Below are positions 1 through 32,186 of a stretch of DNA of 35,491 nucleotides, piece after piece (within the stretch, counting starts at the first letter, position 1; each line of letters opens with the position of its first letter). Position numbers and translations under genes: made by a program. Location of the stretch: the IMG/VR virus record IMGVR_UViG_2671180778_000014, positions 1 to 35,491 of that record; one strand, 5' to 3'. The notes beneath the pieces are model-generated. The model was given only the letters and a program-made list of their open reading frames with translations, had not been told where the DNA came from and did not search any database. The DNA comes from a virus (Duplodnaviria; Heunggongvirae; Uroviricota; Caudoviricetes).

Positions 1-387
1 ATGTTCAATATCATGATTCGTAAATTCGGTGAAATGACTTTCGAGAAAGCTGGTGTTGCGCGTACCGAAGAAGAAGCAATGGCCTTAGTTCTGGTAGCAC
101 TGAGATCATCACCTGAGATTATCGACGCTGAATATGTAGCCGCAGAAGGTGAGATTAAAGAGATTAAAGCAGTGGCTAAGGAATTAGGTGTTAAAGGTTT
201 CCGTAAGCTGAAACTATCCCGCGAGACTTATGTCATTGGACAGCAAGGACAATACCTAGATGAGAATAGCGCGATTGTCCTACTGAATAAGATCACCCGC
301 TATGGTTTCCAGATTGAGCAATATAAAACGTGTTTCGAATTATACGAAAAAGGTTTGCTGGATACTCTGACCATCGTTCGCGCTTAA
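1..387 (+). CDS. hypothetical protein (may be 5'-truncated at window edge)
   Basis: 128-codon ORF ending TAA at 385-387, followed by a hairpin plus T-run terminator; no recognisable motif. Confidence 0.45.
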   Translation: MFNIMIRKFGEMTFEKAGVARTEEEAMALVLVALRSSPEIIDAEYVAAEGEIKEIKAVAKELGVKGFRKLKLSRETYVIGQQGQYLDENSAIVLLNKITRYGFQIEQYKTCFELYEKGLLDTLTIVRA

Positions 388-401
388 TTAATTTCTAATT
401 T

Positions 402-427
402 GGTGGGTGCAATTCCCACCGCTTTTT
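402..427 (+). terminator. rho-independent terminator
   Basis: GGTGGG-tgcaatt-CCCACC hairpin followed by GCTTTTT. Confidence 0.5.
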
Positions 428-444
428 AAACTGGAGAATCAAAC

Positions 445-525
445 ATGTTAGCTTTTATCTCATTCGTGGGAGGTAGTCTCACAACCATGATTAGTCTTTC
501 TTATATTGTCGTTAGTATGGGGTGA
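445..525 (+). CDS. small hydrophobic peptide (26 aa), speculative
   Basis: ATG at 445 preceded by GGAG; translation MLAFISFVGGSLTTMISLSYIVVSMG; below ORF-track size cutoff. Confidence 0.2.
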   Translation: MLAFISFVGGSLTTMISLSYIVVSMG

Positions 526-528
526 GCA

Positions 529-654
529 ATGAAACAATTTCATGATGGCATTTCATCCAAGACATTCAAGAAAGAATATAGCGGATTGTGTATTAACTGG
601 ATTGATTTGATTGGTGCGGTTGTGTTTGGTTTGGTAATCAGCATCAACTTTTAA
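529..654 (+). CDS. small membrane peptide (41 aa), speculative
   Basis: ATG at 529 preceded by GGGGTGAG; translation MKQFHDGISSKTFKKEYSGLCINWIDLIGAVVFGLVISINF has a C-terminal hydrophobic helix. Confidence 0.25.
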   Translation: MKQFHDGISSKTFKKEYSGLCINWIDLIGAVVFGLVISINF

Positions 655-699
655 CGATATAAATATATCGTAATTCAAATAACAAGAGGAAATTCTACT

Positions 700-945
700 A
701 TGAAAAAGATTATCGCGGGTGTTGTTCTTGCTCTGGGTTTGGTTGGTGCTGCAAATGCCGAACAATATGTACAGGGTGATAGTGTCAAGCGTGCTGCCGT
801 TGCACCTTCTTTAAATCAACTGTGTACTGAATTAGCACAGGTTGCCGGAGTTGGTGACGATGACGACTTTATTACTGCGTGTGTATGGAGTCATATCGAG
901 GATATTAATAAACGTGATGCAAAACTAACTGGAAAGAAATATTAA
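700..945 (+). CDS. small secreted protein with N-terminal signal peptide
   Basis: RBS GAGGAA upstream; MKKIIAGVVLALGLVGAANA-EQ looks like a Sec signal peptide with AxA cleavage site; two Cys and a DDDD patch in the mature part; terminator follows. Confidence 0.55.
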   Translation: MKKIIAGVVLALGLVGAANAEQYVQGDSVKRAAVAPSLNQLCTELAQVAGVGDDDDFITACVWSHIEDINKRDAKLTGKKY

Positions 946-961
946 TGACTTACTAACCAAT

Positions 962-1001
962 GCCCCTATCGTTATAATACGCGGTAGGGGCGTTTTTGTT
1001 T
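962..1001 (+). terminator. rho-independent terminator
   Basis: GCCCCTATCG / CGGTAGGGGC stem followed by GTTTTTGTTT. Confidence 0.5.
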
Positions 1002-1010
1002 GGAAATGGT

Positions 1011-2690
1011 ATGAAAACTAAACTGTATTCGTATATTCGCTTCTCGTCTATGCGTCAGAATGATGGTTCGAGTTATGAACGACAAATCAGGATGGCGAGA
1101 GAGGTTGCGGCAAAGTATGACCTTGAACTGGTAAATGATTATCAGGATCTGGGTGTATCTGCGTTTAAGGGTGCTAACTCTAAAACAGGGGCGCTATCTC
1201 GTTTCCTTGATGCAATTGGTAGATCCGTTCCTGTTGGTAGCTGGCTATTCATCGAGAACTTGGACCGTTTATCCCGTGCCGATATTGTCAGTGCGCAGGA
1301 GTTATTCCTTTCAATAATCCGTAGGGGGATAACCATTGTTACTGGCATGGATAACAAGATCTACTCGCTGGATACTGTTACCGCTAACCCGATGGACCTG
1401 ATGTTCTCCATCCTTTTATTCATCCGTGGTAATGAGGAAAGCCAGACTAAGCGCAATCGTACTAACTCAAGCGCATTGATTAAGATTAAAGCTCATCAAG
1501 AAAATCCACAAAATCCGGCAGTGGCTATCGAGGAAGTTGGAAAGAATATGTGGTGGACTGATACCACTTCCGGTTATGTGTGTCCCGATCCGGTCTTCTT
1601 CCCTATTGTTCAGGAGGTTGTGGAATTACGCAGGAATGGACGGTCTACCGCCGAGATACTGGATCACCTTAACGCGACATATACACCACCACCAGCCGCA
1701 AGTCACAAGAGGCATTCAAACTGGTCACGAGCAATGATTGAAAGGTTGTTCCATACCCGCGCTTTGATTGGTATCAAGGAAATCTCTGTAGATGGCGTTA
1801 AGTATGAGTTAAAGGATTATTACCCTCGTGTGCTAGATGACGCTGAGTTTTATCACCTTAAGAAAAGCATTGGTGTTAGAGCATGTAACTATGGAGACAA
1901 AGAAGAAGCTAAACCGATCCCCCTGCTTAGTGGTGTTAATCTGCTGAAATGTGAACATTGCGGTTCCGCTATGGTTAAGGTGAAAGGAACTAACAAACGG
2001 CCTAACCAATATCGTTATTCATGCGATGCAATGCGCTCTAGTCGTATTGCATGTGTGCATACAAACTGGAGTTTTCGAGGTGATCAATTAGAGAAAGCTG
2101 TATTGCAATTGCTGGCTGATAAAATCTGGATTGCTGAGGATAAGGCTAATCCTGTTCCGGCTTTGAAAGTACAGATTGATGAGATATCACGCAAGATTGA
2201 TAACCTGATTACCCTTTCTGCTATGACTGGAGCAACGAAGGAGTTAGCCGACCAGATTACTACCCTCAATAGCGAGCGTGAAACACTCTATAATCAGATT
2301 AAGATGGCAGAAGAGGAAATGTATTCTGTGGACTCTCAAGGCTGGGAGAAGCTCGCAGAATTTGATTTAGAAGATGTTTATAACGAGGATCGCATTAAGG
2401 TCCGGTTTAAGATTAAGCAAGCTCTAAAACGGATCGGGTGTAGCAGGATTGACAAATACAAAAACTTGTTTGTATTGGAATACATTGATGGCAAGACCCA
2501 GAGAGTTGTAATAGAAAATTCAAGAGGACCGAGGAAAGGACAAATCTTTGTCGATTTGAAAACTATCAATGATAGGCAGATTCTGGAGAGTAACGGGCTT
2601 GTTCTGCATCCATGTTTAGACATGCTGACAGATAAAGACTGGAAGCCAGAAGAGGAAATACCAGGTCCATTACAGGAATTTGGAATTTAA
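1011..2690 (+). CDS. large serine recombinase (integrase/resolvase family)
   Basis: N-terminal YSYIRFSSMRQ matches the Y-x-R-x-S-x-x-Q catalytic serine motif; about 560 aa with Cys cluster (CEHCGS...YSCDAM...IAC) and coiled-coil region typical of large serine recombinases. ATG at 1011 preferred over the track's TTG at 996, which lies inside the upstream terminator. Confidence 0.75.
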   Translation: MKTKLYSYIRFSSMRQNDGSSYERQIRMAREVAAKYDLELVNDYQDLGVSAFKGANSKTGALSRFLDAIGRSVPVGSWLFIENLDRLSRADIVSAQELFLSIIRRGITIVTGMDNKIYSLDTVTANPMDLMFSILLFIRGNEESQTKRNRTNSSALIKIKAHQENPQNPAVAIEEVGKNMWWTDTTSGYVCPDPVFFPIVQEVVELRRNGRSTAEILDHLNATYTPPPAASHKRHSNWSRAMIERLFHTRALIGIKEISVDGVKYELKDYYPRVLDDAEFYHLKKSIGVRACNYGDKEEAKPIPLLSGVNLLKCEHCGSAMVKVKGTNKRPNQYRYSCDAMRSSRIACVHTNWSFRGDQLEKAVLQLLADKIWIAEDKANPVPALKVQIDEISRKIDNLITLSAMTGATKELADQITTLNSERETLYNQIKMAEEEMYSVDSQGWEKLAEFDLEDVYNEDRIKVRFKIKQALKRIGCSRIDKYKNLFVLEYIDGKTQRVVIENSRGPRKGQIFVDLKTINDRQILESNGLVLHPCLDMLTDKDWKPEEEIPGPLQEFGI

Positions 2691-2728
2691 GCGGCCTAAA
2701 TCGACGTATAACGAGCTAAAACAGTTAA

Positions 2729-2751
2729 GGGGTACATTCGTACCCCTTTTT
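2729..2751 (+). terminator. rho-independent terminator
   Basis: GGGGTAC-attc-GTACCCC hairpin followed by TTTTT. Confidence 0.55.
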
Positions 2752-2763
2752 AATTTAATTGCG

Positions 2764-3762
2764 TTAGAGTGTCTCTAATGGGCTTAAATCGAGTTCTAAG
2801 TCTTCCGGTATTAAATCAGCTAACGGTGCATTCATCCACTGCGATAAATCTCGTTCTATGTCTTCATCACTAATGTAGTTGTTCAGATTGATTGCGTTGG
2901 TATCATCAAAATACATTGGCTTAGATGGGTTGGTGTGGATGTATTCATTGATGAATGATTTAACATCTTTCAGCTTGCTAATCGGTAGCGTTTCTGTGAA
3001 TCCGCTATTCATTACCTTACGTGGGATTTTCTTGCCCTGAATATTCTTTTTAATCCCCATTTCTAAATCACCAGCTTTCCATCCAATGTTAAACAAATGT
3101 GAGCATTCAAAGGTGATTTTCTCGCTGGTGTGCTTCTGGTGTTCTCTTACCCGTTGCATCGGATCTTTGCGAGTGGTAATTCCATATTTGAAAAACTTCT
3201 CGCCAACACGAATTAGATAAAAGTGCATAGGGCGCTGTGCAAACTTGTTTCTGATAACCTGTTTTCTACCATTCTGAATTGATTTAAGTACCCCCCTAAC
3301 CAAAGGGCATGTTAACCCGCCTTGTCTGCGGTTATTGTGTAAATCACCTTTCTTGTGAATCTTTCCGTGGCACTTACAACGAAGAATTAGTTTAGTGTCA
3401 ACACCCTGATAAGGTTCAGCCAGACCTAACACATCCCACCCTATCGGCTTGTAGAACTTGCGAGCGTTTTCTAAGTGTTCTTCTTCGGTAAATCTAAACT
3501 TCTTCTTAGGCGGTGATACTCTATCTTTGCCAGTAAACTGACCAGTTAGAACATGACTAATACATGGCGTTTTAACCTTTCCGTTAACTTCTATGCAAAC
3601 TTTGGTGTTCTGGAATGGTTTCTTTACAGGAAGCACAAAACCACTGTATAACCATCCATGCACTTGACAAACTTTAATGATTCTGGTTTCATATTCGACC
3701 GGAGGGGTCGCACGTTTGCTTTTTGCGGTAAATTCGATATCCTTTGCTAAAGTAGTATTCAT
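2764..3762 (-). CDS. putative GIY-YIG-like endonuclease with N-terminal Cys-rich region
   Basis: 332-aa ORF; central HFYLIRVGEKFFKYGITTRKDPMQRVREH resembles the GIY...YIG...R...H arrangement; N-terminal CxxH/CxxC clusters; family call tentative. Confidence 0.4.
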   Translation of the reverse strand: MNTTLAKDIEFTAKSKRATPPVEYETRIIKVCQVHGWLYSGFVLPVKKPFQNTKVCIEVNGKVKTPCISHVLTGQFTGKDRVSPPKKKFRFTEEEHLENARKFYKPIGWDVLGLAEPYQGVDTKLILRCKCHGKIHKKGDLHNNRRQGGLTCPLVRGVLKSIQNGRKQVIRNKFAQRPMHFYLIRVGEKFFKYGITTRKDPMQRVREHQKHTSEKITFECSHLFNIGWKAGDLEMGIKKNIQGKKIPRKVMNSGFTETLPISKLKDVKSFINEYIHTNPSKPMYFDDTNAINLNNYISDEDIERDLSQWMNAPLADLIPEDLELDLSPLETL

Positions 3763-3797
3763 AGTAGTGAATCCTCAATAAAATAATATTCACTACT
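3763..3797. promoter_or_regulatory. perfect 10-bp inverted repeat in the 5' leader of the endonuclease gene
   Basis: AGTAGTGAAT ... ATTCACTACT separated by 15 nt, directly upstream of the start at 3762. Confidence 0.3.
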
Positions 3798-3804
3798 ATT
3801 TATA
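3798..3804 (-). promoter_or_regulatory. candidate -10 element (TATAAAT) of a recurring promoter motif
   Basis: minus-strand CTTATAAATA upstream of the gene at 3762; the same motif recurs at 29978 and 30966. Confidence 0.3.
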
Positions 3805-3808
3805 AGAA

Positions 3809-4165
3809 TTAATTATTGTAGTTTTGGAAACCAGTAAGATCGCAAAATGTTTCTGTGTCATGTACCGGAGAACGATGTTCTGCCTCGTCAGAGAAAATGT
3901 TGGCTACCGGAGATTCTGCGTTAACTTCCGGTACTTCTTCAACTACTGGCTGAACTTCTTCAATGACTGGTTCCACTACCGGAGTTTCTTCTACTGGTTC
4001 CGGTTCTTTCATTGCTTCAACCAGTGACGGATCTGCCTCATCAAATACCACTTTATCTTCTGCGGTATATTTGTCTATAATGAAAAAATGGTCAGAAATA
4101 TAGCTAACGTCGCCAGCATATTCTAACAAAAAAGCGCCCACCAGAGGCGCTTTTGTTTTATCCAT
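3809..4165 (-). CDS. hypothetical Pro/Glu-rich protein (uncertain start)
   Basis: ORF with EPEPVEETPVVEPVIEEVQPVVEEVPEV low-complexity segment; 5' end overlaps a terminator hairpin, so the true start and reality are uncertain. Confidence 0.3.
   Translation of the reverse strand: MDKTKAPLVGAFLLEYAGDVSYISDHFFIIDKYTAEDKVVFDEADPSLVEAMKEPEPVEETPVVEPVIEEVQPVVEEVPEVNAESPVANIFSDEAEHRSPVHDTETFCDLTGFQNYNN
4130..4157 (-). terminator. rho-independent terminator after the endolysin gene
   Basis: minus-strand AGCGCC-tctggtg-GGCGCT followed by TTTTTTGTT. Confidence 0.5.
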
Positions 4166-4511
4166 TCCACCGTGATTTTTTTGATCTGGAATCAATATGC
4201 GTAAAGGTTTTATATTTTCCTAAGCCGTATTGAGTAGGATATTTCCCATCAAGATAAGCATGAACAATATCAGGCGAGACACCCTTGATAACAATGTCAG
4301 CCGCGCGGCCTCGAACATGATAGCTATTGGTTGCGCCGCCTACATTCTTGTTATGAGTCGGGCAACGGTTCCCACTGTTAATAATCACTGGTTTACCGAA
4401 GTGCTCTCGTACATCCTCAAGAATCACCAGTAATTCAGCGTCGATTGTATCATAATCACATTTTCCGCATTTACATTTAAATTCCTTGCGAGAAAAATGC
4501 TTACTTAACAT
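4158..4511 (-). CDS. endolysin, zinc peptidase M15-like (YcbK/DUF882-type)
   Basis: FSRKEFKCKCGKC ... NSGNRCPTHNKNVGGATNSYHVRGRAADI ... THID matches the His/Asp zinc-binding pattern of M15-type cell-wall peptidases; RBS AAGGGGG. Confidence 0.65.
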   Translation of the reverse strand: MLSKHFSRKEFKCKCGKCDYDTIDAELLVILEDVREHFGKPVIINSGNRCPTHNKNVGGATNSYHVRGRAADIVIKGVSPDIVHAYLDGKYPTQYGLGKYKTFTHIDSRSKKSRWNG

Positions 4512-6165: not shown

Positions 6166-9100
6166 TTAAGAAACAGTAATACCCGTAGTGGCTTTTTTAG
6201 TTACCATTACAGTTAAATCACTGATCCATGTGCTAGGCGTCCAGTTGTTGATTGCGCTTGATTGCACTTCAAAGGTCAAGGTCACAGCACCTTTACCCGC
6301 TGGCATATCAATAACACCTGAGTAAAGACCAGTATTACCGCCATACGCCCTATTATACAACTCTGACCCATTCTTACGAACAATCAGGCGACATGTGTCG
6401 TAATAGGTATTATTGTTCGACCCTTCACGCGCTCGCAATCCACCAAAACTAATTGCCGGAATAACGATTTGACGATCGAACTTGTGATCATCTTCAACGC
6501 GAACAGTGACCGTACCCTGTGGATAGCCAGCATAACCATTATCAACGTTAACATCACGGTGCGGGAACTTACGACCAATCACCTTAACGAAATCACCCTT
6601 AACCTGAGTAGCTTCAAGCATACCCTTAATAACACAGCTAGAGTTAATCGTGACGTTGTTCAGAGTACCAGAATCAGCCGTGATATTACCTTTAACGGTA
6701 GCGTTCATGAACGTAGCATTACCGTTCTTGTTGATATGCCATCCGGTCGATCCGTTCCAGTTGGAAGACTGGATATAGTTACCGATTTTAGCGTTATCAA
6801 TTGCGCCATTTACAATCTTGGCGTTAGTGATTGCCCCGTCCTGAATCTTCGCGCTGTTAATTGCAGCATTGCCGATCTTAGCGGTAGTAATTGCCGCATC
6901 ATTAATCTGGGCTGTACCAATTGCAGCATTACGAATCATCGCATTATCGAGATAAACCTTGTTACCTTCGATACCAAACGGGCAAACATCGGTCCCATTC
7001 TGCGGAGCTACAGCAATTTTATCAGCCGTAAAGATGATTTTAGTCGGTTGTGCCGGATCGTTGGTTGCGCTCATGTGAATACCAGCCACACGACCATCTG
7101 CATTAACTGCCAGATTGTATTTGCTGTTAATGGTTCCTTTCAAAGCATCGATTTTTACATCTGCTTCCTGATTCACACCAGCAATCTTGCCATCCATTTC
7201 TACCCGAACTTGATCAATCTTACTTGCGCTTGCTGCCTCACTGGTTGCAATTGCTTGTTTCAGGGTTGTAGCGGAGGCGCTAACTTCTTTGGTGATATCG
7301 CCTTTCAGTTCAGCTTTAACCTGATCAATCTTAGTTGAACTTGCCTTATCACCAGAAGCAATCAGACTCTTTAAGGTATCGGCTGAGGCTTGAACAGTTT
7401 TACCCGTCTCGGTAGTGATTTGCTTATGCATTGCATCAATTTTAGCATCGGCATTAGCGCCAGCTTGCTTAATAGCATCCGCGATAGTTTCATCTAAGCG
7501 ATCTTGTAAACCGATCAGGTCTTCCAGTGCTTCTTTGTCCTGATCGTCCCAACTAATCGTAGACTTCATTTGCATGAAATACGGTTCAGACCAAACAGCA
7601 TCATCCATACCGAAAATATCGTAGTGAGCACCACGGATATAATAATCACCGTCAGCAATATCAAAGGAAGTATGGCTAACACTATTCGTGCTTACTGCCC
7701 TTGCATCTGAGAAAGTGTTATCGGTTGCATACTGGATGATTGACCCTGCATAGTCATGTTCTACGTCATCCGCCCAGCTAACAAACGCAGTATTAAAGCC
7801 ACCACGCGCACTAAAACCTTTCATTGGCTTATGCTGTGGGTTGATAGCCACTAAACGCGCTGGGGCGCTCTCTGAGTTGTTATAGCCCTTAGCCGATACT
7901 TCTACCGTAAGTTGTCGCGAAAGGCCGTTAAACTGGTTCATATCAAGTGTATAAGTCCATGATTCAGGATCGCGGGTACGGTACTGAATAGACTTACCAG
8001 CCTTGTTAGTCACCTTGATAATGTATGCTTCAAACAGGTCACTAAACTTGTTAGTTTCACCGTTGATCATCACATCTAATTGTTGCTGATTTTCCCATTC
8101 GATAATCAGATCATTACCTTCGAAAGTTCCTGGCGTGCTACCCTGATTTTTGATTCGAATAACCGGAGTCGGTAATTCATAGGTAACAGTAGGATTCTGG
8201 TTAATCAGTTCTACCCAATCAGATCTCGCGATGATACCGAAAGCACAAACTCGGTAATCATAAGAACGATCTTTTGCCAGTGCACTGACACTGAAAATTT
8301 GCTGTGAAGTCTGTCCCAGCTTAATCCAGTTAGGCGATCCACTAACACGGTAATCAATCTGGAAGCCGTAGCGGTTAAAATCTTCCGGCGCATCCCATGT
8401 TAAAGTAACGTTCTTACCATAGATTGTTTCACCAGTTGCCTTAATTCTGAAATTAGTAGGCTTCTGTACTGTCATTGAATCCGGTAAACCACTTGGTCGG
8501 TTATCTGGGTTAGCCGCATAGTTCAGGTCAGTATAAACCTGAGAATTATATTCTGTGGCGGTGATCGTCATCATCCCAGCAATACCAGAATCAATCGAGC
8601 GGTCAATTGCAGTAATACGCCAAAGTGAATTATTCAGTTTTAATTCATCATAGGTTACGCTGATAACATCCCACACCTCGGCAGTGAATGCGTCAGTAGT
8701 CATAAAGCTGATAACCTGAGTGATACGAGATTTATTTCGTTCAATGCTCGCAAGTTTATCAATCTGGGCTTTAGACTTAACAAAACGATATTCGATATCC
8801 TTAGCGATAATTCGACCATCTTGACGAATAGTAGCATCGTTTTCAGCATCAGCCGGATAACGTAGCATTTGCTCTGAATAGTCAATAGATGGTTCTTGAT
8901 ACATCGCGTTAATGGTATTGAAATAACCGTTAGTGCCACCTGTTTTCAGTGATACCTTACCCATCATGATATTGTCTTCATTGAAGGTATGCTTAACAAT
9001 ATCAGGAGCATCCAGTTTCAGGGTAATTCTTCCGAAGGATTCGAACATCACCCCGCCGAAAGTCTGCATAAGGCTAGTCAAGTTCTCTTTAAAGCTGGCG

Positions 9101-19000: not shown

Positions 19001-19668
19001 TTGTCGGAAACAGTCTTTTCGATCGCTGTCTTGTTAGCTGCAACCGTGCTAGTTAAGCTAGAAATTTTGTTATCTGCATCGGTTTTATTTGCAGTAACAG
19101 TTTTAGTTAAGTTGCTAACGTTGGTGTTAGTGGTATTAACCTTGTTGTTAATCGCGGTGTTATTGTCAGTGACCGTTTTCGTTAAAGCTGCATGTTTGCT
19201 ATCTGCATCAGATTTGTTTGCGGCAACGGTTCTTTCAATTGCGGTCTTATTCGCAGATACGGTCCCCGTAAGGTTATTGATCTTAGTGTCGGCATCGGTT
19301 TTATTTTCCGTAACTGTCTGGGTTAAGTTACTAACAGTGGTGTTGGTAGCATCAATGCGCTTATTGGTTGCGGTGTCTTTAGTGGTAATAGTCTGATTCA
19401 GTTCAGCTTTAGCACTAGCCAGATTATTAGCGGCCTCTTGTTTGTTGGAAGCAATAACACGGTCAGTGCTAGTTTTATTCTGGTCTACTTTCGTGTTAAG
19501 TTCAGCGTGTTTTTCTGGAGAAACAGAGATTTGAACTACTGCGTTATTTTTATCTTTGGTATACAGAACGTGATCAGCAAGGTTAATAGCCAATTCACCC
19601 TGTGATAATTGTTCCGGCGTTGGTTTTTTACCAGCCGTTTGTGTGCGTTTAAATTGGATTGATCGCAT
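16045..19668 (-). CDS. L-shaped / side tail fibre with C-terminal intramolecular chaperone (peptidase S74-like) domain
   Basis: 1207 aa; N-terminal repetitive TxNKTDADxKIxxLTxTVxANKTAIE segments; C-terminal SDSRLKINKEEL ... GIIAQDLEEVLPEAV matches the auto-cleaving chaperone domain of endosialidases and T5-type L-shaped fibres; KPTPGEIGAYTKAEVD fibre repeat. Confidence 0.8.
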   Translation of the reverse strand: MRSIQFKRTQTAGKKPTPEQLSQGELAINLADHVLYTKDKNNAVVQISVSPEKHAELNTKVDQNKTSTDRVIASNKQEAANNLASAKAELNQTITTKDTATNKRIDATNTTVSNLTQTVTENKTDADTKINNLTGTVSANKTAIERTVAANKSDADSKHAALTKTVTDNNTAINNKVNTTNTNVSNLTKTVTANKTDADNKISSLTSTVAANKTAIEKTVSDNKKDADTKITNLTGTVNSNHTAINNKVDQNKSSTDAAIAAANKRIDGIEGSNDALYIKKNTNTKHGGYLLSKTANYLEDQTSRDLNYFGAFRTNGQDGLLDLTLNVPHSAGKAHGRGFTFRYASGGSRVETYGFDREGQKNFSYKMYHEGDKPTPGEIGAYTKAEVDKMFVKNVVMSVPNSSENVSAYFKLATATIPQNGRSVFFRIHGGNGYNVTAYDQVDVVEILLRSGNDRPKGLNVIAYRRNTNKDFEVFAVNTSGDNYDIYVKYQRYTDNVIVEYGKSVYVSLTVYDTPEATLIKPSVGVIGGRNVTLFNTENKRGVLSFDDNTQNSYDIVHLSNDRGTGRKYIRKFRSNYNEMIWHETVQGSTYRLATGSTDAQEILTVESSSSIAGTHKGNILSGRMLLNGGSNVITLRRPAGQSNHIAFQDNRTGNITRQGWFGYGNADTNVFEWYSDVGGTSIRHHIDGQIELATGNTKRVYTNAQFISMNSDAYRMIYGKYGAFWRNDGVKVYLLSTAEDDKLGGWNGNRPFIYDMNTGKVTLGGDGNEGALILERDSRAARFSNNVFLEKGLLTFSAGGNQSMDSFTINHWGNSNANRYNVLQFQDTSGTHFTTERNGSGGLLAHFRGDLTAEGKITWGKNTSASSFNIRAWGAGPGNEGRQQVFECADESGWHWYTQRAGGPGTELIEFAVNGTLRPKAIHAGGNITLNGADIEFKRTGNKHIWFRDPNGLELGLMYSDDAGVIRFRGQKQAQTWKLADKMIHLESGSVGGSDKGLIRGNVSGGSWSSWRDRASGLQVDCPQSKDSAHNIWKATHWGQYHIAAMGVHVPSGTIGNALVRLHVHDTNFDFNAAGDFTAGRNGSFNDVYIRSDSRLKINKEELQDGALEKVNSLKVYTYDKVKSLSDDTVIKREVGIIAQDLEEVLPEAVGIQSTEDPENPEAIKTISNSAVNALIIKAIQEMDAKYQAKIEALTKEIAELKATK

Positions 19669-27518: not shown

Positions 27519-27605
27519 GTAATTACCCTCATTACGAAATATGAAGGTATTTATTAAGTTGTTGATTTTTTGATAAATACGGGTATTAAGATTTAAGGGG
27601 GTTGT

Positions 27606-28211
27606 ATGCTAATTAATCAGCAACAAAGAGATGTATTAGAATTAGCCTTTTCTTGTTGTACCGATCATGAATATCGTTTGCCAGTTAAGCACCATCACAA
27701 GAAGACTGATTACACAACATCCGGCTTTAGTCGCGAGGAAGCTAAACAGATTTTAATCGAGTTGTATCGTGATCATGGGTATACCGATATTCATAACTTC
27801 TTTAAGAAGCACCGAACATCACAGACAGAGTTTAATAGAGTCCGTGAATGGTTTGATTTTGACATTAAGCGATTCTATCGAGTGGATGACGGTCCAATCT
27901 ATCGGTTGCAGTGGACACCGATTAGGGAAGTGCTTAAACAGAAGAGATTGAATCATGCCATTACACGCTATCGTAACGTGGCTTTTAAGAAAGGCTATGG
28001 TGATACAAGGGAACTATTCGTTGAACTCGCTAACGTGCGATATAGCCACTATTACAGGAATCCTAAAGAGTTCTTCGAAGTGCTGCGCAAGGTTGATATA
28101 AGTCGGGGTACATACTATTCACGGTTGAAGAAGTACGGGATTAAGGCAGAGTTCTTTATGTCGGTTGACGATGGAGAACTTTTTCCGATAAAATGTAAGT
28201 CCTCTAAATAA
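27606..28211 (+). CDS. hypothetical DNA-binding protein with C-terminal HTH
   Basis: 201 aa; C-terminal FEVLRKVDISRGTYYSRLKKYGI is HTH-like; RBS AAGGGGG; divergent from the terminase gene. Confidence 0.5.
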   Translation: MLINQQQRDVLELAFSCCTDHEYRLPVKHHHKKTDYTTSGFSREEAKQILIELYRDHGYTDIHNFFKKHRTSQTEFNRVREWFDFDIKRFYRVDDGPIYRLQWTPIREVLKQKRLNHAITRYRNVAFKKGYGDTRELFVELANVRYSHYYRNPKEFFEVLRKVDISRGTYYSRLKKYGIKAEFFMSVDDGELFPIKCKSSK

Positions 28212-28239
28212 AGGTGAACATTCACTTTAATTTGGAGAA

Positions 28240-28473
28240 ATGACTATGACTACTAAAGCTACTCGCGGTCGCCCTGCCCGTTTTAACGCTGAACAGATGG
28301 CTGATATTGCCTACGCTTACTATACAGCGGATCGCGGGAAGGAAGCGAAAGAACAGATTCTTAGTGAACATGGGATCTCAATCGCCCAATTCTATAAGAA
28401 TATGAAGAAGTTAGACATTAAATTCTATGTTCAGATCGGTGATGGTCAGATCGTAGAAGCAACAGGTTTTTGA
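28240..28473 (+). CDS. small HTH protein resembling a terminase small-subunit N-terminal DNA-binding domain
   Basis: 77 aa; TRGRPARFNAEQMADIAYAYY ... GISIAQFYKNMKK fits the GRPxK(F/Y) + HTH pattern of some small terminase N-termini (Sf6 gp1-like as recalled). Confidence 0.5.
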   Translation: MTMTTKATRGRPARFNAEQMADIAYAYYTADRGKEAKEQILSEHGISIAQFYKNMKKLDIKFYVQIGDGQIVEATGF

Positions 28474-28488
28474 GTTTTGATTCTCTTT

Positions 28489-28513
28489 GCCACTCTTCGG
28501 AGTGGCTTTTTTT
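28489..28513 (+). terminator. rho-independent terminator
   Basis: GCCACTC-ttcg-GAGTGGC hairpin followed by TTTTTTT. Confidence 0.6.
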
Positions 28514-28516
28514 ATG

Positions 28517-28544
28517 CCTATAGAAAACAAAAAAGCCCCGCACT
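28517..28544 (-). terminator. rho-independent terminator (conserved family)
   Basis: minus-strand AGCCTCGC-ctagt-GCGGGGCT followed by TTTTTTG; third copy of the AAAAAAGCCCC...GGCT module. Confidence 0.5.
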
Positions 28545-28558
28545 AGGCGAGGCTAAAA

Positions 28559-29029
28559 TCATACTTTGATTCGGACAAACTTGCATCCTAACTCATTTTC
28601 AATTCTTCGTTGACGGATCTCGTCTTGCTCTTTCTTGTACTGGTGTTCTGGTTCATCAATTTCATAAGCTATATTATTAACCGGATCATAACCATCAATT
28701 CGATAGTTTAACACCCGACACTGGCGAATCAGGTTGATACCTAAAACTTGTTCTATAGTGTTAAGAGCAATCTTTTCGGCAGTAGATAAACCAAAACGTA
28801 AGCCGTTATAGCGTTTATACATCGCATCTGCTAATTGTCCACACAGCATATAGTGACACTTTTTTCGATTTTGGGAATCTACATACACAGATTCAACAAA
28901 AGCAATTCCTGTATTTTTAGAAACTAACCTAACGTCACGCAAAACATCTTGATGTCTCTTTCCAAATTCTTTAGCCAAATCCAGAGAGCTAATCTGTTCT
29001 TTTTCTAATTGTAATGCAGCATTTCCCAT
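28559..29029 (-). CDS. Rha-type N-terminal domain protein with small C-terminal nuclease-like domain
   Basis: LAKEFGKRHQDVLRDVRLV matches the Rha regulatory domain signature; C-terminal YDPVNNIAYEIDEPEH ... KFVRIK has acidic residues compatible with an endonuclease-like fold (tentative). Confidence 0.5.
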   Translation of the reverse strand: MGNAALQLEKEQISSLDLAKEFGKRHQDVLRDVRLVSKNTGIAFVESVYVDSQNRKKCHYMLCGQLADAMYKRYNGLRFGLSTAEKIALNTIEQVLGINLIRQCRVLNYRIDGYDPVNNIAYEIDEPEHQYKKEQDEIRQRRIENELGCKFVRIKV

Positions 29030-29072
29030 AAAGTACCCCTTAAAAGCCCCTGAAATTCAGGGGCAAAAATTA

Positions 29073-29906
29073 TTACAGTCCGAAGACTTCCAGAGAGCCA
29101 GCATTCTGACGAATCAGCAAAGCAGTGTTATTAATGATTGCTCGTGAGTTATTCGGCTGTGGCAATTTCAAAGTTGCGGCCTTTTCTTCTTCAAGCAATC
29201 CGAGTTTTACGAGATGCGGGATAGCATCAGCAGTGAACTCGATCTGACCGTGTGCCGACATACGAGCGAACATATAGCCAGGAGGAAGCAGATCATAGCC
29301 TTTAGGCTTACCAGAAGCATCCAGACGACGCTCAAGAACACCAGCAGCACATAAACCTTTCAGAATCATTTGTACCTTCGTAGAGCCTCGTTTTTCGCCT
29401 AATAAGCGGCTAAGACTGTGTGCATCAATAGCTTTACGGATATGAAGATCAACTAATTGTTCTTTTTCTTGAATCAGTTGTTCGTTTGCGGCTTCTAATT
29501 CCATTGCCTCACGAATCCAATCGAGCTTAGTCATGTTTGCGTATGGGTTGACTTGCTGAGAACGCAGTTTTTCATTTTCTTCTTTCAGTCGTTTCCATTC
29601 CTGAATAACAACCATTCGACGCTTAACATCGTAACCAGTGACAAGAGTCAGAGTCATTTCTTCGTCTAGTTGATATTCGTTTTGTTCGCGTCCGTATTGG
29701 TCAAAATAGATGACGCGAAACTTCGCGTGATCTTCATAACCTAGAGCATTCAACATCTTAGTTATATCAACTTTAACTTTGTGGTGTTCTTTTCCGGTAA
29801 ATTCAGCGATCTGACGAGAAGACATGGTCAGTGGTTTGGTGTTATCAACAACCAGAGACACGGAAGCAGTTTTAACAGCAGTATTCATAGTAGTAACAGT
29901 ATTCAT
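29073..29906 (-). CDS. antirepressor-type regulator (Rha N-terminal domain + KilAC-like C-terminal domain)
   Basis: SSRQIAEFTGKEHHKVKVDITKMLNAL ... VIYFDQYGREQNEYQL is Rha-like; C-terminal LSRLLGEKRGSTKVQMILKGLCAAGVLERR ... GYMF is KilAC/Ant-like. Confidence 0.7.
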   Translation of the reverse strand: MNTVTTMNTAVKTASVSLVVDNTKPLTMSSRQIAEFTGKEHHKVKVDITKMLNALGYEDHAKFRVIYFDQYGREQNEYQLDEEMTLTLVTGYDVKRRMVVIQEWKRLKEENEKLRSQQVNPYANMTKLDWIREAMELEAANEQLIQEKEQLVDLHIRKAIDAHSLSRLLGEKRGSTKVQMILKGLCAAGVLERRLDASGKPKGYDLLPPGYMFARMSAHGQIEFTADAIPHLVKLGLLEEEKAATLKLPQPNNSRAIINNTALLIRQNAGSLEVFGL

Positions 29907-29977
29907 AGTAAAAATTCCCCTTAAACGGTTTAGTGATTTGGTCCTCCTAGTTCCGGCATCACTACCGGAACAATTTT

Positions 29978-29984
29978 ATTTATA
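29978..29984 (-). promoter_or_regulatory. candidate -10 element (TATAAAT) of recurring promoter motif
   Basis: minus-strand CTCTTATAAATAAA about 70 nt upstream of the start at 29906. Confidence 0.3.
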
Positions 29985-29998
29985 AGAGCTATTTCTTA

Positions 29999-30331
29999 TT
30001 ACCAATCGATTTCTACCTGATCTTCTTCGTAGTAAGGAATCGCATACTCATAACGCCAGTTTTCGATGATTTCACGTTCTTCATTGGTAAGAAGGTGATT
30101 GCTAACTGGAGTCGCATTATGATTACCAGCTTCGAATTGCTCGCGAACTTCCAGCATTGCATGAATACCAGTTAAAGACATAAGGTCAAACGGGATATGC
30201 ATACTACGTGAGATAGGTTCACGGGAAACGCCCCAATCATTTTCTACATGGCGAGCTTTAACCAAAACGGTTTTACCAATGATTTCTACAGTCCAGTCAT
30301 ACAAGGATTTAGTGATGGTAAATTCTTTCAT
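29999..30331 (-). CDS. hypothetical protein (early-type, downstream of a strong promoter)
   Basis: 110-aa ORF; strong sigma70-like promoter about 50 nt upstream. Confidence 0.5.
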   Translation of the reverse strand: MKEFTITKSLYDWTVEIIGKTVLVKARHVENDWGVSREPISRSMHIPFDLMSLTGIHAMLEVREQFEAGNHNATPVSNHLLTNEEREIIENWRYEYAIPYYEEDQVEIDW

Positions 30332-30387
30332 GTTACATCCTCTTTACAAATCTAGGTCAAATAGGTTCAAAATTGTCAAGTGCGATA

Positions 30388-30416
30388 ATCATAAAAAAGT
30401 CAAAAAATTTTGTCAA
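30388..30416 (-). promoter_or_regulatory. sigma70-type promoter (TTGACA - 17 nt - TATGAT)
   Basis: minus-strand TTGACA at 30416-30411, 17-nt AT-rich spacer, TATGAT at 30393-30388; further TTGACA boxes nearby. Confidence 0.5.
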
Positions 30417-30451
30417 TACCCCTTGACAAGATGCCAAAGGGTTGACCTAAC

Positions 30452-30919
30452 TTACAGCATATCTAAGCCTTCATCGTAACCGTAGAAGCTATTGTGAGAA
30501 GAAAAACAGATTGGTGCGTAGTCTTCGTCTTCCTCGTCTTCTTCATCTTGTTCTGGGGCTTCCTGAGCGGTTTCTTTGCCGTAGTTAAACATTGCTTCAT
30601 CCAGTTCATAGACAGTAACGAAGCTACCTAAATCAATGTCACCTGACCGGACTTCGAAAGGCAGATCATCACGAACAATAATTGCTGGTAGATTCTGGTA
30701 TTTCAGGCGATCTTCATCGGTGAAGCAGTTAACAACGATGGTAGGACGTTTATTTCTTCCGAAAACATACCATGCACTAGAGAAATGGGATTCATCGGTA
30801 TTGTAAAGGATGTTATAACCACGTTCACGGAACATCTTCATTAACTTGTCATTGTGAAAGCTATCTGCATCCAGACCCAGAAGGATAAAAGGAGTAGTGG
30901 TAGTCATTTTGTGGTTCAT
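30452..30919 (-). CDS. hypothetical acidic protein
   Basis: ATG at 30919 preceded by GAGGA with 8-nt spacer; C-terminal EQDEEDEEDEDY acidic tail. Confidence 0.5.
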   Translation of the reverse strand: MNHKMTTTTPFILLGLDADSFHNDKLMKMFRERGYNILYNTDESHFSSAWYVFGRNKRPTIVVNCFTDEDRLKYQNLPAIIVRDDLPFEVRSGDIDLGSFVTVYELDEAMFNYGKETAQEAPEQDEEDEEDEDYAPICFSSHNSFYGYDEGLDML

Positions 30920-30965
30920 AGTGGTAATCCTCAAAAAGAAAGTTAATCAAAGTAATTCTGATATT

Positions 30966-30972
30966 ATTTATA
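30966..30972 (-). promoter_or_regulatory. candidate -10 element (TATAAAT) of recurring promoter motif
   Basis: minus-strand CTCTTATAAATAATA about 50 nt upstream of the start at 30919. Confidence 0.3.
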
Positions 30973-31224
30973 AGAGAAAATTCTTGATGATTTTGGAAGG
31001 GATGGATTCAGTCGGGCTAAAGCCCTCCTTCATAGATTTGATTAAAAGACCAGCAAACGTAACTCGGATCTTATAGTTAATATAGTTATCTTTGAAGAAA
31101 TAATAATCAGGAAGCAATTTCAGCAACCGCAGGTTGCGATCCCGAAGGGATAACCAATACCTTTCTAGAAAGTGATTGTTACTCACTTCGTTCGTTTACT
31201 AGAATCAGTTATCATCTAGTATTA

Positions 31225-31595
31225 AATCCCTTTCTAAGAAAATCCTTTCAAAAGTGAGTGAACGCCGTAGGCGTGAACGTGAGCGAAGCGAACTATCCAA
31301 TCCCTTTCGAATCCTGCTTGCAGGTCTTAGAAGGTGTTGGTGGGCGCTACGCGCACGGCTACGCCGTATTCTTTTTGCGAGATCTTTCTTGAACGTAGTG
31401 AGAGAAAGCGAGCAAAAAGGAGAACGTTAGTTCGAATTTTATATTCTATGGTCTGTTGGGTATAATCCCTTTCAAGATCATACACTTACGTGATTGAAGT
31501 GTAGGGTTAGTGTAGGTGTGTAGGTTTCATAGTGTAGGTTTGAGAGTGTTATAGTGTAGGTTTACTGGCTAGTGTAGTGTAGGCCAATCCCTTTA
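31225..31595 (+). repeat. dispersed direct repeats of the 10-mer AATCCCTTT(C/A)
   Basis: copies at 31225, 31299, 31464 and 31586, a degenerate copy at 31241, and an inverted copy at 35108-35117. Confidence 0.6.
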
Positions 31596-31617
31596 AAGTG
31601 TAGGTGTGTAGTGTAGG
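31499..31617 (+). repeat. iteron array of the heptamer GTGTAGG (about 10 copies, mostly GTGTAGGTT)
   Basis: copies at 31499, 31510, 31518, 31532, 31554, 31577, 31598, 31611 plus GTGTAGT variants at 31572 and 31606, followed by an AT-rich stretch. Confidence 0.7.
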
Positions 31618-31813
31618 TTTTCTATCAAAAATTTTGACAAAAATTATTGTATATTATTTAACCAAAAAATCACCAAAAAGCGGCGTAAATTCATGATTTA
31701 AAAGAAATTTTCAAAAGATCTCCGTGCCATAATAGGTTATAAAGGTTGATAATCATTATTTGCCATTTTCAAACAAAAATTTTGATACACTTTTCTCGCT
31801 TAGATCATTGGTA

Positions 31814-31842
31814 TTGACAAGTGTCAAGAACTATTTTATACT
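31814..31842 (+). promoter_or_regulatory. consensus sigma70 promoter (TTGACA - 17 nt - TATACT)
   Basis: TTGACA at 31814-31819, 17-nt spacer, TATACT at 31837-31842. Confidence 0.6.
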
Positions 31843-31849
31843 TTTTCTC

Positions 31850-32007: not shown

Positions 32008-32131
32008 CGGTTGAATATTGTACGGATTGATTAATTATTAATCTTCTCTTTAGCAATTCGTGCTCCCTCTGATCGGATATACAGTGGTTTTACAGAGTTT
32101 TTGAAAATCATTTTTATAAATAGAATTGTTC

Positions 32132-32150: not shown

Positions 32151-32186
32151 AAAAAAATCATTATTCCAGATTTAGGAGGATTCAAG

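What the first reader, a model, noticed from the sequence alone, without database searches (positions are those of the whole stretch)
700..3762. Large serine recombinase convergent with a GIY-YIG-like endonuclease, next to a secreted small protein, all flanked by terminators
A ~560-aa serine recombinase with the catalytic Ser motif sits in a lysis/accessory region, suggesting an integration or inversion function whose target (attP or invertible segment) should be nearby. Directly upstream is a terminator-flanked gene for an 81-aa protein with a clear signal peptide, a typical moron layout. Convergent is a Cys-rich GIY-YIG-like endonuclease whose leader holds a perfect 10-bp inverted repeat.
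Basis: partly seen in the sequence, partly recalled or inferred. Interest (0 to 1): 0.55.

Follow-up and report, generated by a model that had tools for sequence, protein, structure and literature searches.

The report
Prophage integrase, mobile nuclease gene, secreted moron
This is the left end of a roughly 36-kb E. coli prophage: a serine integrase that inserts the phage into the host gene hicB, a small secreted-protein gene in front of it, and a homing-endonuclease-like nuclease gene behind it, which is an ordinary kind of module but has two instructive twists.

Summary
The 559-aa protein (1011-2690) is an intact large serine recombinase. It is the prophage integrase. The window is an integrated E. 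coli prophage, and its left junction with the host gene hicB lies 43-44 nt upstream of window position 1. The attachment site is therefore neither at 388-700 nor at 2690-2764, and it is not inside the window at all.

I reconstructed attB and attP, with a TT crossover. Sister prophages whose integrase is about 92% identical insert into ycdX instead. The differences between the two types cluster in the two DNA-binding domains.

The 332-aa protein has two CapR-type modules plus a T5orf172/MUG113-like GIY-YIG-superfamily domain. This is the architecture of free-standing phage homing endonucleases. The gene stays convergent with the integrase gene in E. coli, Shigella and Salmonella relatives. It is also an island of 99-100% identity between flanks that are 82-94% identical.

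The 10-bp inverted repeat is conserved. It forms an RNA hairpin that covers the start codon and overlaps a TATAAATA motif.

The 81-aa gene has a Sec-type signal peptide and its own terminator. Other prophages carry alleles with the same signal peptide but an unrelated mature part.

Verdict: a new member of known kinds, of moderate interest.

The parts
1..387 (+). First gene of the prophage (128 aa, unknown function). The hicB::phage junction, with its TT crossover, lies 43-44 nt upstream of position 1, outside the window.
   Evidence: phrog_14908. The junction sequence ...cctgtttaggtTTgcctaatataatgcccccac...ATG was read in L001 and in L006-L009; L010, L011 and L021 carry 1-2 substitutions in the phage arm.
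401..421 (+). Terminator-like hairpin after the first gene.
   Evidence: -11.4 kcal/mol, followed by a T run.
529..654 (+). 41-aa ORF with a C-terminal hydrophobic segment; probably a real small membrane-protein gene.
   Evidence: A homologous 41-aa ORF sits in the same slot in the distant relative L012.
658..665 (+). TATAAATA motif 34 nt before the ATG of the 81-aa gene; a candidate promoter element.
   Evidence: The motif occurs 9 times against 2.7+-1.7 expected. All copies are intergenic, and by my reading of the ORF list all but one (32478, minus strand) have a gene start 13-71 nt downstream on the same strand. The 34-nt spacing recurs in L003 and L019.
700..945 (+). 81-aa exported protein. 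Signal peptide 700-759; mature part 61 aa, predicted as a two-helix hairpin with two invariant Cys.
   Evidence: The allele swap has boundaries at 758/962 and keeps the signal peptide. dN/dS is 0.26-0.30.
959..994 (+). Strong intrinsic terminator after the 81-aa gene.
   Evidence: 14-bp stem, -23.7 kcal/mol, T tail.
1011..2690 (+). Large serine recombinase (559 aa), the prophage integrase. Catalytic domain about aa 5-153 with Ser12; recombinase domain about aa 198-286; zinc ribbon about aa 310-368; then a coiled-coil and C-terminal region.
2727..2748 (.). Hairpin terminator between the convergent genes, probably bidirectional; the T tail is good on the + strand and weak on the - strand.
   Evidence: The stem is kept in Salmonella with a changed loop and is replaced by a different hairpin in L012.
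2764..3762 (-). 332-aa CapR-type / T5orf172-like (GIY-YIG superfamily) nuclease-like protein. Two CapR-like modules (about aa 21-80 and 93-165), a nuclease-like core (about aa 178-277) and a conserved acidic C-terminal tail.
3761..3799 (-). RNA hairpin in the leader of the 332-aa gene. The arms are 3788-3799 and 3761-3772. The 3' arm covers the A and U of the start codon, and the Shine-Dalgarno GAGG lies in the apical part.
   Evidence: The core AGTAGTG...ACTACT is conserved in E. coli, L012 and Salmonella relatives although their upstream genes are unrelated.
3797..3804 (-). TATAAATA motif 34 nt before the ATG of the 332-aa gene, overlapping the 5' arm of the hairpin.
   Evidence: The same 34-nt spacing occurs before the 390-aa homologue in Salmonella L022.
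3809..4195 (-). Gene with 79-89% nucleotide identity to the inh (prohead protease inhibitor) gene of RB49-like T-even phages. This flank is more diverged than the nuclease gene next to it.

Best explanation
Coordinates 1-4200 are the integrase end of a roughly 36-kb temperate siphovirus-like prophage of E. coli.

(1) The 559-aa large serine recombinase is the phage integrase. It recombines a quasi-palindromic attP with an attB inside the antitoxin gene hicB, exchanging strands at a TT dinucleotide. In window orientation:
- attP: ...GGGGTTTACAACATTTAGGG-TT-GCCTAATATAATGCCCCCAC...
- attB: ...CTCCTGTTTAGGT-TT-GCCAATTCGCCTGG...
Integration cuts off the C-terminal part of HicB, which I take from memory to be its DNA-binding part. 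Target choice appears to lie in the recombinase and zinc-ribbon domains. Sister prophages with a 99-100% identical catalytic domain but only 82% identity across aa 176-375 (the two DNA-binding domains and their surroundings) use a related attB/attP pair in ycdX.

(2) The convergent 332-aa gene is a free-standing nuclease gene of the homing-endonuclease type: CapR-type DNA-binding modules followed by a T5orf172-like GIY-YIG-superfamily catalytic domain. It behaves as a self-contained cassette of promoter-like motif, hairpin, ORF and terminator. This cassette has recently spread or been homogenised among otherwise diverged prophages.

Its translation is probably gated as in T4 I-TevI and T4 gene e. 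Read-through transcripts would carry a hairpin that covers the start codon. Transcripts starting just downstream of the TATAAATA motif would lack the 5' arm of that hairpin and could be translated.

(3) The 81-aa gene is a moron: an independently terminated gene for a small periplasmic protein in a slot that holds different exported proteins in different prophages.

Shown here: the domain content, the catalytic-residue pattern, the junctions and att sites, the synteny, the identity island and the allele swap. Inferred: nuclease activity, homing, hairpin gating, promoter function and export.
For: Integrase:
- Pfam domains are above their cut-offs and phrog_95 'integrase' matches at E 5e-59.
- A family profile matches the SPbeta, A118, PhiC31 and TP901-1 integrases.
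- R10, S12, Q16, D85-R86-x-x-R89 and four zinc-ribbon Cys are invariant.

Integration site:
- In NZ_CM136169.1 (99.4% identical over 1-4200) the element sits between two hicB fragments. Joining the flanks restores an intact 138-aa HicB.
- The reconstructed attB is 100% identical and uninterrupted in other genomes, and is covered at >=80% in 5281 of 5426 complete E. coli genomes.
- The exact window recombinase lies next to ydcR/hicB in 6 of 6 places shown.
- For the ycdX type, an empty site and both junctions pin the crossover to TT, because the bases on both sides of TT differ between attB and attP.
- Sequences spanning the two junctions are found in 35 (hicB) and 25 (ycdX) genomes. The recombinase gene occurs at 59 places in 57 genomes.
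- Target correlates with aa 176-375 and not with the catalytic domain. 28 of 33 discriminating positions lie in aa 196-351.

Nuclease:
- 17 of 18 family members match CapR, 8 match T5orf172 and 4 match MUG113, all at E <= 1.
- A profile search found at least 2000 representatives. A sample of 42 is dominated by CapR, DUF4379, DUF723, MUG113 and T5orf172.
- Y182, K192, G194, R204, E234 and E257 are invariant.
- Foldseek against viral models gives 111 matches at E <= 1e-3, named CapR homology, GIY-YIG, T5 Orf172 or homing endonuclease.
- This architecture is the one described for phage T5orf172 homing endonuclease genes (PMC10448857, PMC8096241).
- The gene is convergent with the integrase gene in E. 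coli, Shigella, Salmonella and L012.
- The gene is 99-100% identical between prophages whose neighbouring integrase and inh-like genes are only 82-94% identical. Its dS is 0.02 against 0.17-0.35 for the integrase gene.

Hairpin and motif.

Moron.
Against: - The second Tyr of the GIY-YIG motif is Phe in most relatives.
- No clean nuclease-free 'empty' allele was found. The DEC5A-type prophage lacks the gene but keeps its 3' end, so it looks like a deletion.
- Stable synteny with the integrase gene down to 50% protein identity fits a resident, possibly domesticated, gene as well as a selfish one.
- The identity island could come from ordinary recombination.
- No transcription start sites are known, and TATAAATA lacks the usual -35 partner and the -7 T of a sigma-70 promoter.
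- The attP arm on the far side was reconstructed from a 99%-identical relative, because the window ends before it.
- Export of the 81-aa protein was not tested with a predictor.
Confidence: 0.7

Rival explanations
1. The 332-aa protein is not a selfish homing endonuclease. It would instead be a resident partner of the integrase, either a moonlighting recombination directionality factor or a CapR-like DNA-binding regulator of excision or lysogeny.
For: - It is kept convergent with the integrase gene in every lineage examined, down to 50% protein identity, while the genes on its other side vary.
- Directionality factors have no common sequence motifs, and some are moonlighting proteins (PMC12286644).
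- The CapR domain was first characterised in a transcriptional repressor (PMC8096241).
- A conserved acidic C-terminal tail could be a docking peptide.
Against: - The putative catalytic residues are invariant, which suggests that nuclease activity is maintained.
- DEC5A-type prophages lack the gene yet are present in many genomes.
- The same allele accompanies both hicB-type and ycdX-type integrases.
- The paper states that directionality factors show no consistent synteny with their integrase genes.
Confidence: 0.15
2. The nuclease, and perhaps the other genes preceded by TATAAATA, form a prophage-encoded exclusion or defence function. It would be switched on by a superinfecting T-even phage whose late sigma factor gp55 recognises TATAAATA.
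For: - TATAAATA is the T4 late-promoter consensus (my knowledge).
- It occurs 9 times against 2.7 expected in the window. All copies lie in intergenic parts of the non-structural arms.
- Relatives have 18 copies in prophage arms and none in about 52 kb of chromosomal flank in L002, L016 and L023.
- No sigma-like protein was found in the window.
- T-even-like DNA (inh) and T-even-like genes (uvsW, uvsY, gp37/gp38-like fibre) sit in this prophage lineage.
Against: - There are no significant PADLOC matches; the best is PD-Lambda-1 at E 0.005 over 22 residues.
- The motif precedes most non-structural genes, which the phage presumably needs for its own cycle.
- Most proteins in that arm have no known function and could include a divergent sigma factor or activator.
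- The motif may simply be the phage's own promoter type.
Confidence: 0.1
3. The recombinase inverts or resolves a segment inside the phage instead of integrating it.
For: Only its position near tail-fibre and lysis genes, and a weaker match to phrog_125 'DNA invertase' (E 2.5e-11).
Against: - It has the full large-serine architecture.
- The prophage ends lie exactly at split host genes, and joining the flanks restores intact attB sites.
- No attP-like sequence occurs in the window.
Confidence: 0.02

Closest known systems
Phage large serine integrases (SPbeta SprA/YokA, Listeria A118, TP901-1, PhiC31)
   Same: - The same three-domain architecture with a coiled-coil region, and a Ser nucleophile in Y-x-R-x-S.
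- Short quasi-palindromic attP and attB sites with a 2-bp non-palindromic crossover.
- Integration inside a host gene.
   Different: - Only about 30% identity to any integrase of an isolated phage in the collection searched.
- The targets are hicB and ycdX. My two literature searches turned up no report of prophage integration at either gene.
- attB and attP share an unusually long match around the core in the hicB pair: TTTAGG[T/G]TTGCC.
- The directionality factor is unknown.
T5orf172 homing endonuclease genes with CapR/DUF723/DUF4379 zinc-finger repeats in ICP1 and other virulent phages (Barth et al. 2023, PMC10448857), and PLE CapR (Netter et al. 2021, PMC8096241)
   Same: - N-terminal repeated CapR-type modules followed by a T5orf172/MUG113-like GIY-YIG-superfamily domain.
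- A free-standing gene that sits at a boundary between differently diverged segments.
   Different: - It is found in a temperate prophage next to the integrase gene and is kept there across genera.
- The first CapR-like module has lost most of its Cys ligands.
- It has an extra conserved acidic C-terminal tail.
- The window protein itself scores below the Pfam cut-offs.
- Neither nuclease activity nor homing has been shown.
T4 I-TevI and T4 gene e: a late promoter embedded in a hairpin that occludes the ribosome-binding site (from my knowledge of the T4 literature)
   Same: A TATAAATA motif overlaps the 5' arm of a hairpin whose 3' arm covers the start region of a GIY-YIG-superfamily nuclease gene.
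   Different: - The host element is a temperate siphovirus-like prophage with no recognisable gp55.
- No transcript mapping exists.
Prophage morons (for example lambda bor and lom, HK97 gp15)
   Same: A small gene with its own terminator and a promoter-like motif, near the prophage end, encoding an exported protein, with variable content between related prophages.
   Different: The alleles share one signal peptide fused to unrelated mature parts. The function is unknown.

Membership tests
Large serine recombinase (phage integrase) | N-terminal resolvase-type catalytic domain with the nucleophilic Ser and the conserved Arg/Asp residues | tested here: met
   Pfam Resolvase E 1e-14. R10, S12, Q16, D85, R86 and R89 are invariant. 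S12 aligns with TP901-1 Ser12; that this residue is the nucleophile comes from my knowledge.
Large serine recombinase (phage integrase) | Recombinase domain plus zinc ribbon, with a coiled-coil insertion | tested here: met
   PF07508 and PF13408 are above their cut-offs. Four Cys are invariant: C314, C317, C338 and C348. The profile aligns with SPbeta and A118 integrases across positions 265-455, including the coiled-coil region.
Large serine recombinase (phage integrase) | attP x attB recombination at a 2-bp crossover, giving a prophage flanked by hybrid sites | tested here: met
   Junctions, empty sites and a restored ORF were found for hicB and for ycdX. The crossover is pinned to TT in the ycdX pair.
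Large serine recombinase (phage integrase) | Unidirectional integration, with excision needing a directionality factor | not testable with these tools
   This needs biochemistry or AlphaFold-multimer screening (PMC12286644).
GIY-YIG superfamily, T5orf172/MUG113 branch | A match to the family profile above its curated cut-off | tested here: not met
   The window protein scores 13.3 bits for MUG113 against a cut-off of 22.3. Relatives match T5orf172 (8 of 18, best E 6e-4) and MUG113 (4 of 18, best E 1.5e-4), all counted at E <= 1. More distant relatives reach E 1e-6.
GIY-YIG superfamily, T5orf172/MUG113 branch | GIY-YIG fold | tested here: met
GIY-YIG superfamily, T5orf172/MUG113 branch | Catalytic Tyr, Arg and Glu residues conserved | tested here: inconclusive
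   Y182, G194, R204 and E257 are invariant in 18 close and 42 distant relatives. Mapping them onto catalytic positions is by motif order only. The second Tyr is Phe in most relatives.
CapR-type zinc-finger DNA-binding domain | A match to PF21817 and the CxxC...CxC ligand pattern | tested here: inconclusive
   The window protein scores 16 bits against a cut-off of 24.2. 17 of 18 relatives match, best E 4.7e-20. Module 2 has C129-x-C131...C152 plus His residues and lacks a second CxxC. Module 1 keeps only C32.
Homing endonuclease gene (functional class) | Sporadic presence at a fixed locus, with a signature of recent transfer relative to the flanks | tested here: inconclusive
   There is an island of 99-100% identity in flanks of 82-94%. 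This allele is in 20 genomes against 57 carrying the integrase gene. However, the only gene-free allele found looks like a deletion, and synteny is stable across genera.
Homing endonuclease gene (functional class) | Site-specific DNA cleavage of the gene-free allele | not testable with these tools
   This needs a nuclease assay.
Sec-exported protein / moron | N-terminal signal peptide with a signal peptidase I site | not tested
   No predictor was available. By direct reading the protein has an MKK n-region, a hydrophobic core of about 15 residues, and ANA|EQ. The same 20 residues head an unrelated 137-139-aa protein in other prophages.
Sec-exported protein / moron | An autonomous transcription unit with variable content between related phages | tested here: met
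   A terminator lies immediately downstream, and TATAAATA lies 34 nt upstream. The alleles swap between positions 758 and 962. Salmonella and L012 carry a lipoprotein or another signal-peptide protein in this slot. Promoter activity is inferred.

The most novel reading that the evidence does not exclude
The accessory and early genes of this prophage, including the nuclease and the secreted protein, carry T4-type late promoters (TATAAATA at a fixed 34 nt before the start codon). They would be read by the late transcription machinery of a superinfecting T-even phage. The prophage would thus sense T-even infection and respond with a nuclease that attacks the invader or exchanges DNA with it. That would also explain the T-even-derived inh, uvsW, uvsY and fibre sequences in this lineage.
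Probability: 0.1. Interest if true: 0.8.

Novelty: new member of a known kind. Interest (0 to 1): 0.42.

Why it matters
Three points go beyond routine annotation.

First, the two integrase types form a natural specificity switch. They have nearly identical catalytic domains and differ at 28 discriminating positions in the DNA-binding domains (33 in the whole protein). They use two defined attB/attP pairs, in hicB and in ycdX. Such a pair is a ready-made test case for how large serine integrases read their sites, which matters for retargeting them as genome-engineering tools.

Second, the nuclease gene shows that CapR/T5orf172 nuclease genes, described mainly in virulent phages, also live stably next to the integrase gene of temperate enterobacterial prophages. 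There the gene marks a boundary between differently diverged segments.

Third, the phage inserts into the antitoxin gene hicB. This leaves hicA next to a truncated antitoxin and links lysogeny to a toxin-antitoxin system.

Tried and rejected
I looked for attP at 388-700 and 2690-2764. Those intervals hold only terminators, a short palindrome at 654-671 and overlapping palindromes at ORF starts. No copy of the reconstructed attP core exists in the window.
- **Close relatives among isolated phages.** The nucleotide search gave only the T-even inh segment. The best protein identity for the integrase was 31%.
- **Direct PDB sequence searches.** The integrase and the 332-aa protein gave nothing useful on their own; profiles were needed.
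- **Defence systems.** PADLOC gave no meaningful match.
- **RNA genes.** Rfam and tRNA scans of the whole window found nothing.
- **A gp55-like sigma factor.** I searched the unknown ORFs with Pfam, PHROGs and PDB sequences and found nothing.
- **The window's own right-hand junction.** I looked up the 188-aa protein near the right end; it is not on record. The far attP arm was therefore taken from a 99%-identical relative.
- **AFDB50 fold search.** The library was unavailable.
- **Literature.** Searches for prophages integrated in hicB or ycdX found no relevant report.
- **Fold search for the 81-aa model.** I did not run one, because a two-helix hairpin would match non-specifically.


Full report
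**What is in the window.** The rest of the window is a siphovirus-like morphogenesis block on the minus strand. It comprises large terminase, portal, a capsid-protease fusion, tail proteins, tape measure, a J-like tail tip, two large fibre genes and an M15 endolysin. Beyond it lies an arm of about 8 kb in which almost nothing is recognisable.

The region 1-4200 matches 58 of 5426 complete E. coli genomes, always on the chromosome. No isolated phage in the collection matches it at nucleotide level, apart from a 240-nt T-even inh segment. The window is therefore a prophage.

**The recombinase.** The protein has the Resolvase, Recombinase and zinc-ribbon domains, all above the Pfam cut-offs, and it matches the PHROG 'integrase' family at E 5e-59. 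The likely start is the ATG at 1011, giving 559 aa. This is the start annotated in a 99.4%-identical RefSeq prophage, and the TTG at 996 lies inside the terminator tail.

A profile of 20 homologues matches the SPbeta, A118, PhiC31 and TP901-1 integrases. An N-terminal profile aligns YsYiRfS with the TP901-1 sequence AIYTRVS, which puts Ser12 on Ser12. R10, S12, Q16, D85, R86, R89 and four zinc-ribbon cysteines are invariant. The first refutation condition, a missing catalytic serine, is not met.

**Where it acts.** In E. coli NZ_CM136169.1 the element lies between a hicB fragment that lacks its N-terminus and one that lacks its C-terminus. Joining the two chromosomal flanks gives an intact 138-aa HicB. 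The reconstructed 203-nt attB is 100% identical and uninterrupted in other genomes. It is covered at 80% or more in 5281 of 5426 genomes.

The exact recombinase protein of the window is on record in 24 contigs that were read. All six places shown lie beside ydcR/hicB. Four of them (L006-L009) have the junction ...cctgtttaggtTTgcctaatataatgcccccac...; L010 and L011 carry one or two substitutions in the phage arm. In all six the junction ends 42 nt before the ATG that is window position 1.

The attachment site is thus just outside the window and is split, because the phage is integrated. No sequence resembling attP exists in the window.

**A second target and the crossover.** Other E. coli prophages with about 95% nucleotide identity over 1-4200 are inserted in ycdX. 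An empty ycdX site and both junctions give the following sites:
- attB: ATTTGGGA-TT-TCCGGGATGG
- attP: GTTCGGG-TT-CCCTAATATC

The bases on both sides of TT differ between the partners, so exchange must occur at TT. The hicB pair aligns on the same TT:
- attB: ...TTTAGGT-TT-GCCAATTC...
- attP: ...TTTAGGG-TT-GCCTAATAT...

The attP is quasi-palindromic, with inner TTAGG/CCTAA and outer GGGG/CCCC elements about 20 nt either side of the centre.

Sequences spanning the junctions occur in 35 genomes (hicB) and 25 genomes (ycdX). The recombinase gene occurs at 59 places in 57 genomes, so these two sites account for essentially all copies.

**Specificity determinants.** Identity to the window protein, by region:

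| Integrase | Target | Catalytic domain (aa 1-175) | aa 176-375 |
|---|---|---|---|
| ycdX-type E. coli enzymes | ycdX | 99-100% | 82% |
| P0018 | hicB | 82% | 97% |

Twenty-eight of the 33 positions that separate the two E. coli groups lie in aa 196-351. At many of these positions the ycdX residues are shared with the Salmonella ycdX-site enzymes, so the hicB specificity looks derived. This rests on four hicB-site and three E. coli ycdX-site sequences, so it is a correlation and not a proof.

**The 332-aa protein.** On its own it is below the Pfam cut-offs (CapR E 0.014, MUG113 E 0.13). It does match PHROG 681 'endonuclease' at E 4e-20. The family evidence is stronger:
- At E <= 1, 17 of 18 homologues match CapR, 8 match T5orf172 and 4 match MUG113.
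- A profile search found at least 2000 representatives at E <= 1e-3. A sample of 42 is dominated by CapR, DUF4379, DUF723, MUG113 and T5orf172.
- Y182, K192, G194, R204, E234 and E257 are invariant. They fall in the order expected for the GIY...YIG...R...E motifs.
- Foldseek against viral models returns 111 matches at E <= 1e-3. They are named CapR homology, GIY-YIG, T5 Orf172 or homing endonuclease, and many of the named hits are in large lytic phages.

This is the architecture Barth et al. describe for T5orf172 homing endonuclease genes. They treat T5orf172 as a GIY-YIG subfamily in which a Glu-dependent nuclease activity has been shown in one case (PMC10448857; PMC8096241). The second refutation condition, a match to a non-nuclease family, is not met.

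**Is it mobile or resident?** Both kinds of signal are present.

*Resident.* A homologue of 331-391 aa is convergent with the integrase gene in every lineage I looked at: E. coli, a Shigella-type allele, two Salmonella types and L012. This holds down to 50% identity, while the genes on its other side differ.

*Mobile.*
- The gene is 99-100% identical between prophages whose integrase gene body (83-94%) and inh-like gene (82-83%) are clearly diverged.
- Its dS is 0.02 against 0.17-0.35 for the integrase gene.
- The island runs from the terminator to the leader hairpin.
- This allele is in 20 genomes, whereas the integrase gene is in 57.
- DEC5A-type prophages lack it but keep its last 46 nt, so they look like deletions and not virgin sites.

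I conclude that it is a nuclease cassette of the homing-endonuclease type that has recently swept or been homogenised. Cleavage and homing remain inferred.

**The inverted repeat.** The 10-bp repeat is part of a 12-bp RNA stem of -15.2 kcal/mol (z -4.5). Its 3' arm ends on the A and U of the start codon, and the GAGG Shine-Dalgarno lies in the apical part. The core ...TAAATAGTAGTGA...GAGGA..ACTACTATG is conserved upstream of the homologues in E. coli, L012 and Salmonella, although their upstream genes are unrelated. No compensatory changes are available to prove that the stem forms.

The 5' arm overlaps TATAAATA. A transcript starting a few nucleotides downstream of that motif would lack the 5' arm. 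This is the layout known from T4 I-TevI and T4 gene e (my knowledge). An operator function for the DNA palindrome is an alternative.

**The 81-aa gene.** The protein has a textbook Sec signal peptide, and its mature part is predicted as a two-helix hairpin (pLDDT 77-93 for residues 31-80). Two Cys are invariant. Homologues are few and all come from E. coli, and dN/dS is about 0.3.

The gene is followed by the strongest terminator in the region and is preceded by TATAAATA at 34 nt. In DEC5A-type and L010-type prophages, positions 759-961 are replaced. The same 20-residue signal peptide is then fused to an unrelated 137-139-aa mature protein. Salmonella and L012 relatives carry a lipoprotein or another signal-peptide protein in the same slot. 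This fits a moron; its function is unknown.

**Comparison and verdict.** The integrase is a new member of the large serine integrase family, with two defined target pairs. The nuclease is a new member of the CapR/T5orf172 class in an unusual setting, a temperate prophage where it is syntenic with the integrase gene. The small gene is a typical moron. Interest is moderate.

Noticed in passing
window 658, 3797, 29977, 30965, 31913, 32115, 32478, 34439, 35267: TATAAATA, the T4 late-promoter consensus, occurs 9 times against 2.7+-1.7 expected, and 0 of 100 shuffles reach 9. All copies are intergenic in the non-structural arms, each is preceded by a T-rich stretch, and all but one have a gene start 13-71 nt downstream on the same strand. 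In several cases the motif lies exactly 34 nt before the ATG, also in Shigella and Salmonella relatives. Relatives have 18 copies in prophage arms and none in about 52 kb of chromosomal flank. No sigma-like protein was found.
   Followed up: partly
window 3826-4068; L013 3772-5846; L022 7093-9540: T-even-derived DNA sits next to the nuclease gene. The inh-like gene is 79-89% identical in nucleotides to RB49-like (Krischvirus) phages, in which inh lies beside uvsW. Salmonella relatives carry uvsW-like and uvsY-like genes at the same place.
   Followed up: partly
window 14840-15346 and 16045-19668: A fibre gene like the T4 gp37 distal subunit (1207 aa, phrog_1699, E 9e-145) and a gp38-like adhesin gene are inserted between two genes that resemble major tail proteins. 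This is in addition to the J-like tail tip gene at 6166-9942.
   Followed up: no
just upstream of window position 1; L002 31040-31551; L023 8066-8596: Integration truncates hicB after codon ~103 and adds 8 phage-encoded codons before a stop. I take the lost C-terminal part to be the DNA-binding region (from memory). hicA is annotated as frameshifted in one lysogen and as intact in O55:H7 DEC5A.
   Followed up: partly
window 445-525 and 529-654: There are two small hydrophobic ORFs between the first gene and the 81-aa gene. The 41-aa one has a homologue in the same slot in the distant relative L012, so it is probably a real membrane-protein gene. RefSeq does not annotate it.
   Followed up: partly
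L008 19398-20171; L004 7658-8239; L012 4941-5525; L002 31622-32686: Relatives carry further nuclease-like genes at other positions: a NUMOD3 gene among the tail genes, a 193-aa GIY-YIG gene before the endolysin gene, a 194-aa T5orf172 gene, and a 354-aa GIY-YIG gene at the opposite prophage end.
   Followed up: no
window 2764-2860 (C-terminus of the 332-aa protein): The acidic tail PLADL(E/I)PEDLELDLSPLE(A/T)L is conserved, including in the otherwise different 394-aa relatives. Its coding remnant survives in the DEC5A deletion allele. Its function is unknown.
   Followed up: no
window 27600-35491: The non-structural arm has no recognisable repressor, replication or excision genes. It holds only two Rha-like proteins and a protein like a small terminase subunit (34455-35021). 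An ORF-poor stretch at about 30934-32187 carries three TATAAATA copies.
   Followed up: partly
window 1051-1500 compared with L021: The integrase gene is mosaic. In one hicB-type prophage the part encoding the catalytic domain is only 70-75% identical in nucleotides, while the rest is 95-100% identical. Some genomes carry two copies of the integrase gene.
   Followed up: partly
window 1 and 35491: The window starts exactly at the ATG of the first prophage gene and ends exactly at a minus-strand ATG. It was therefore cut at gene boundaries, and both att half-sites fall outside it. The last 270 nt differ from the closest complete-genome relative.
   Followed up: yes
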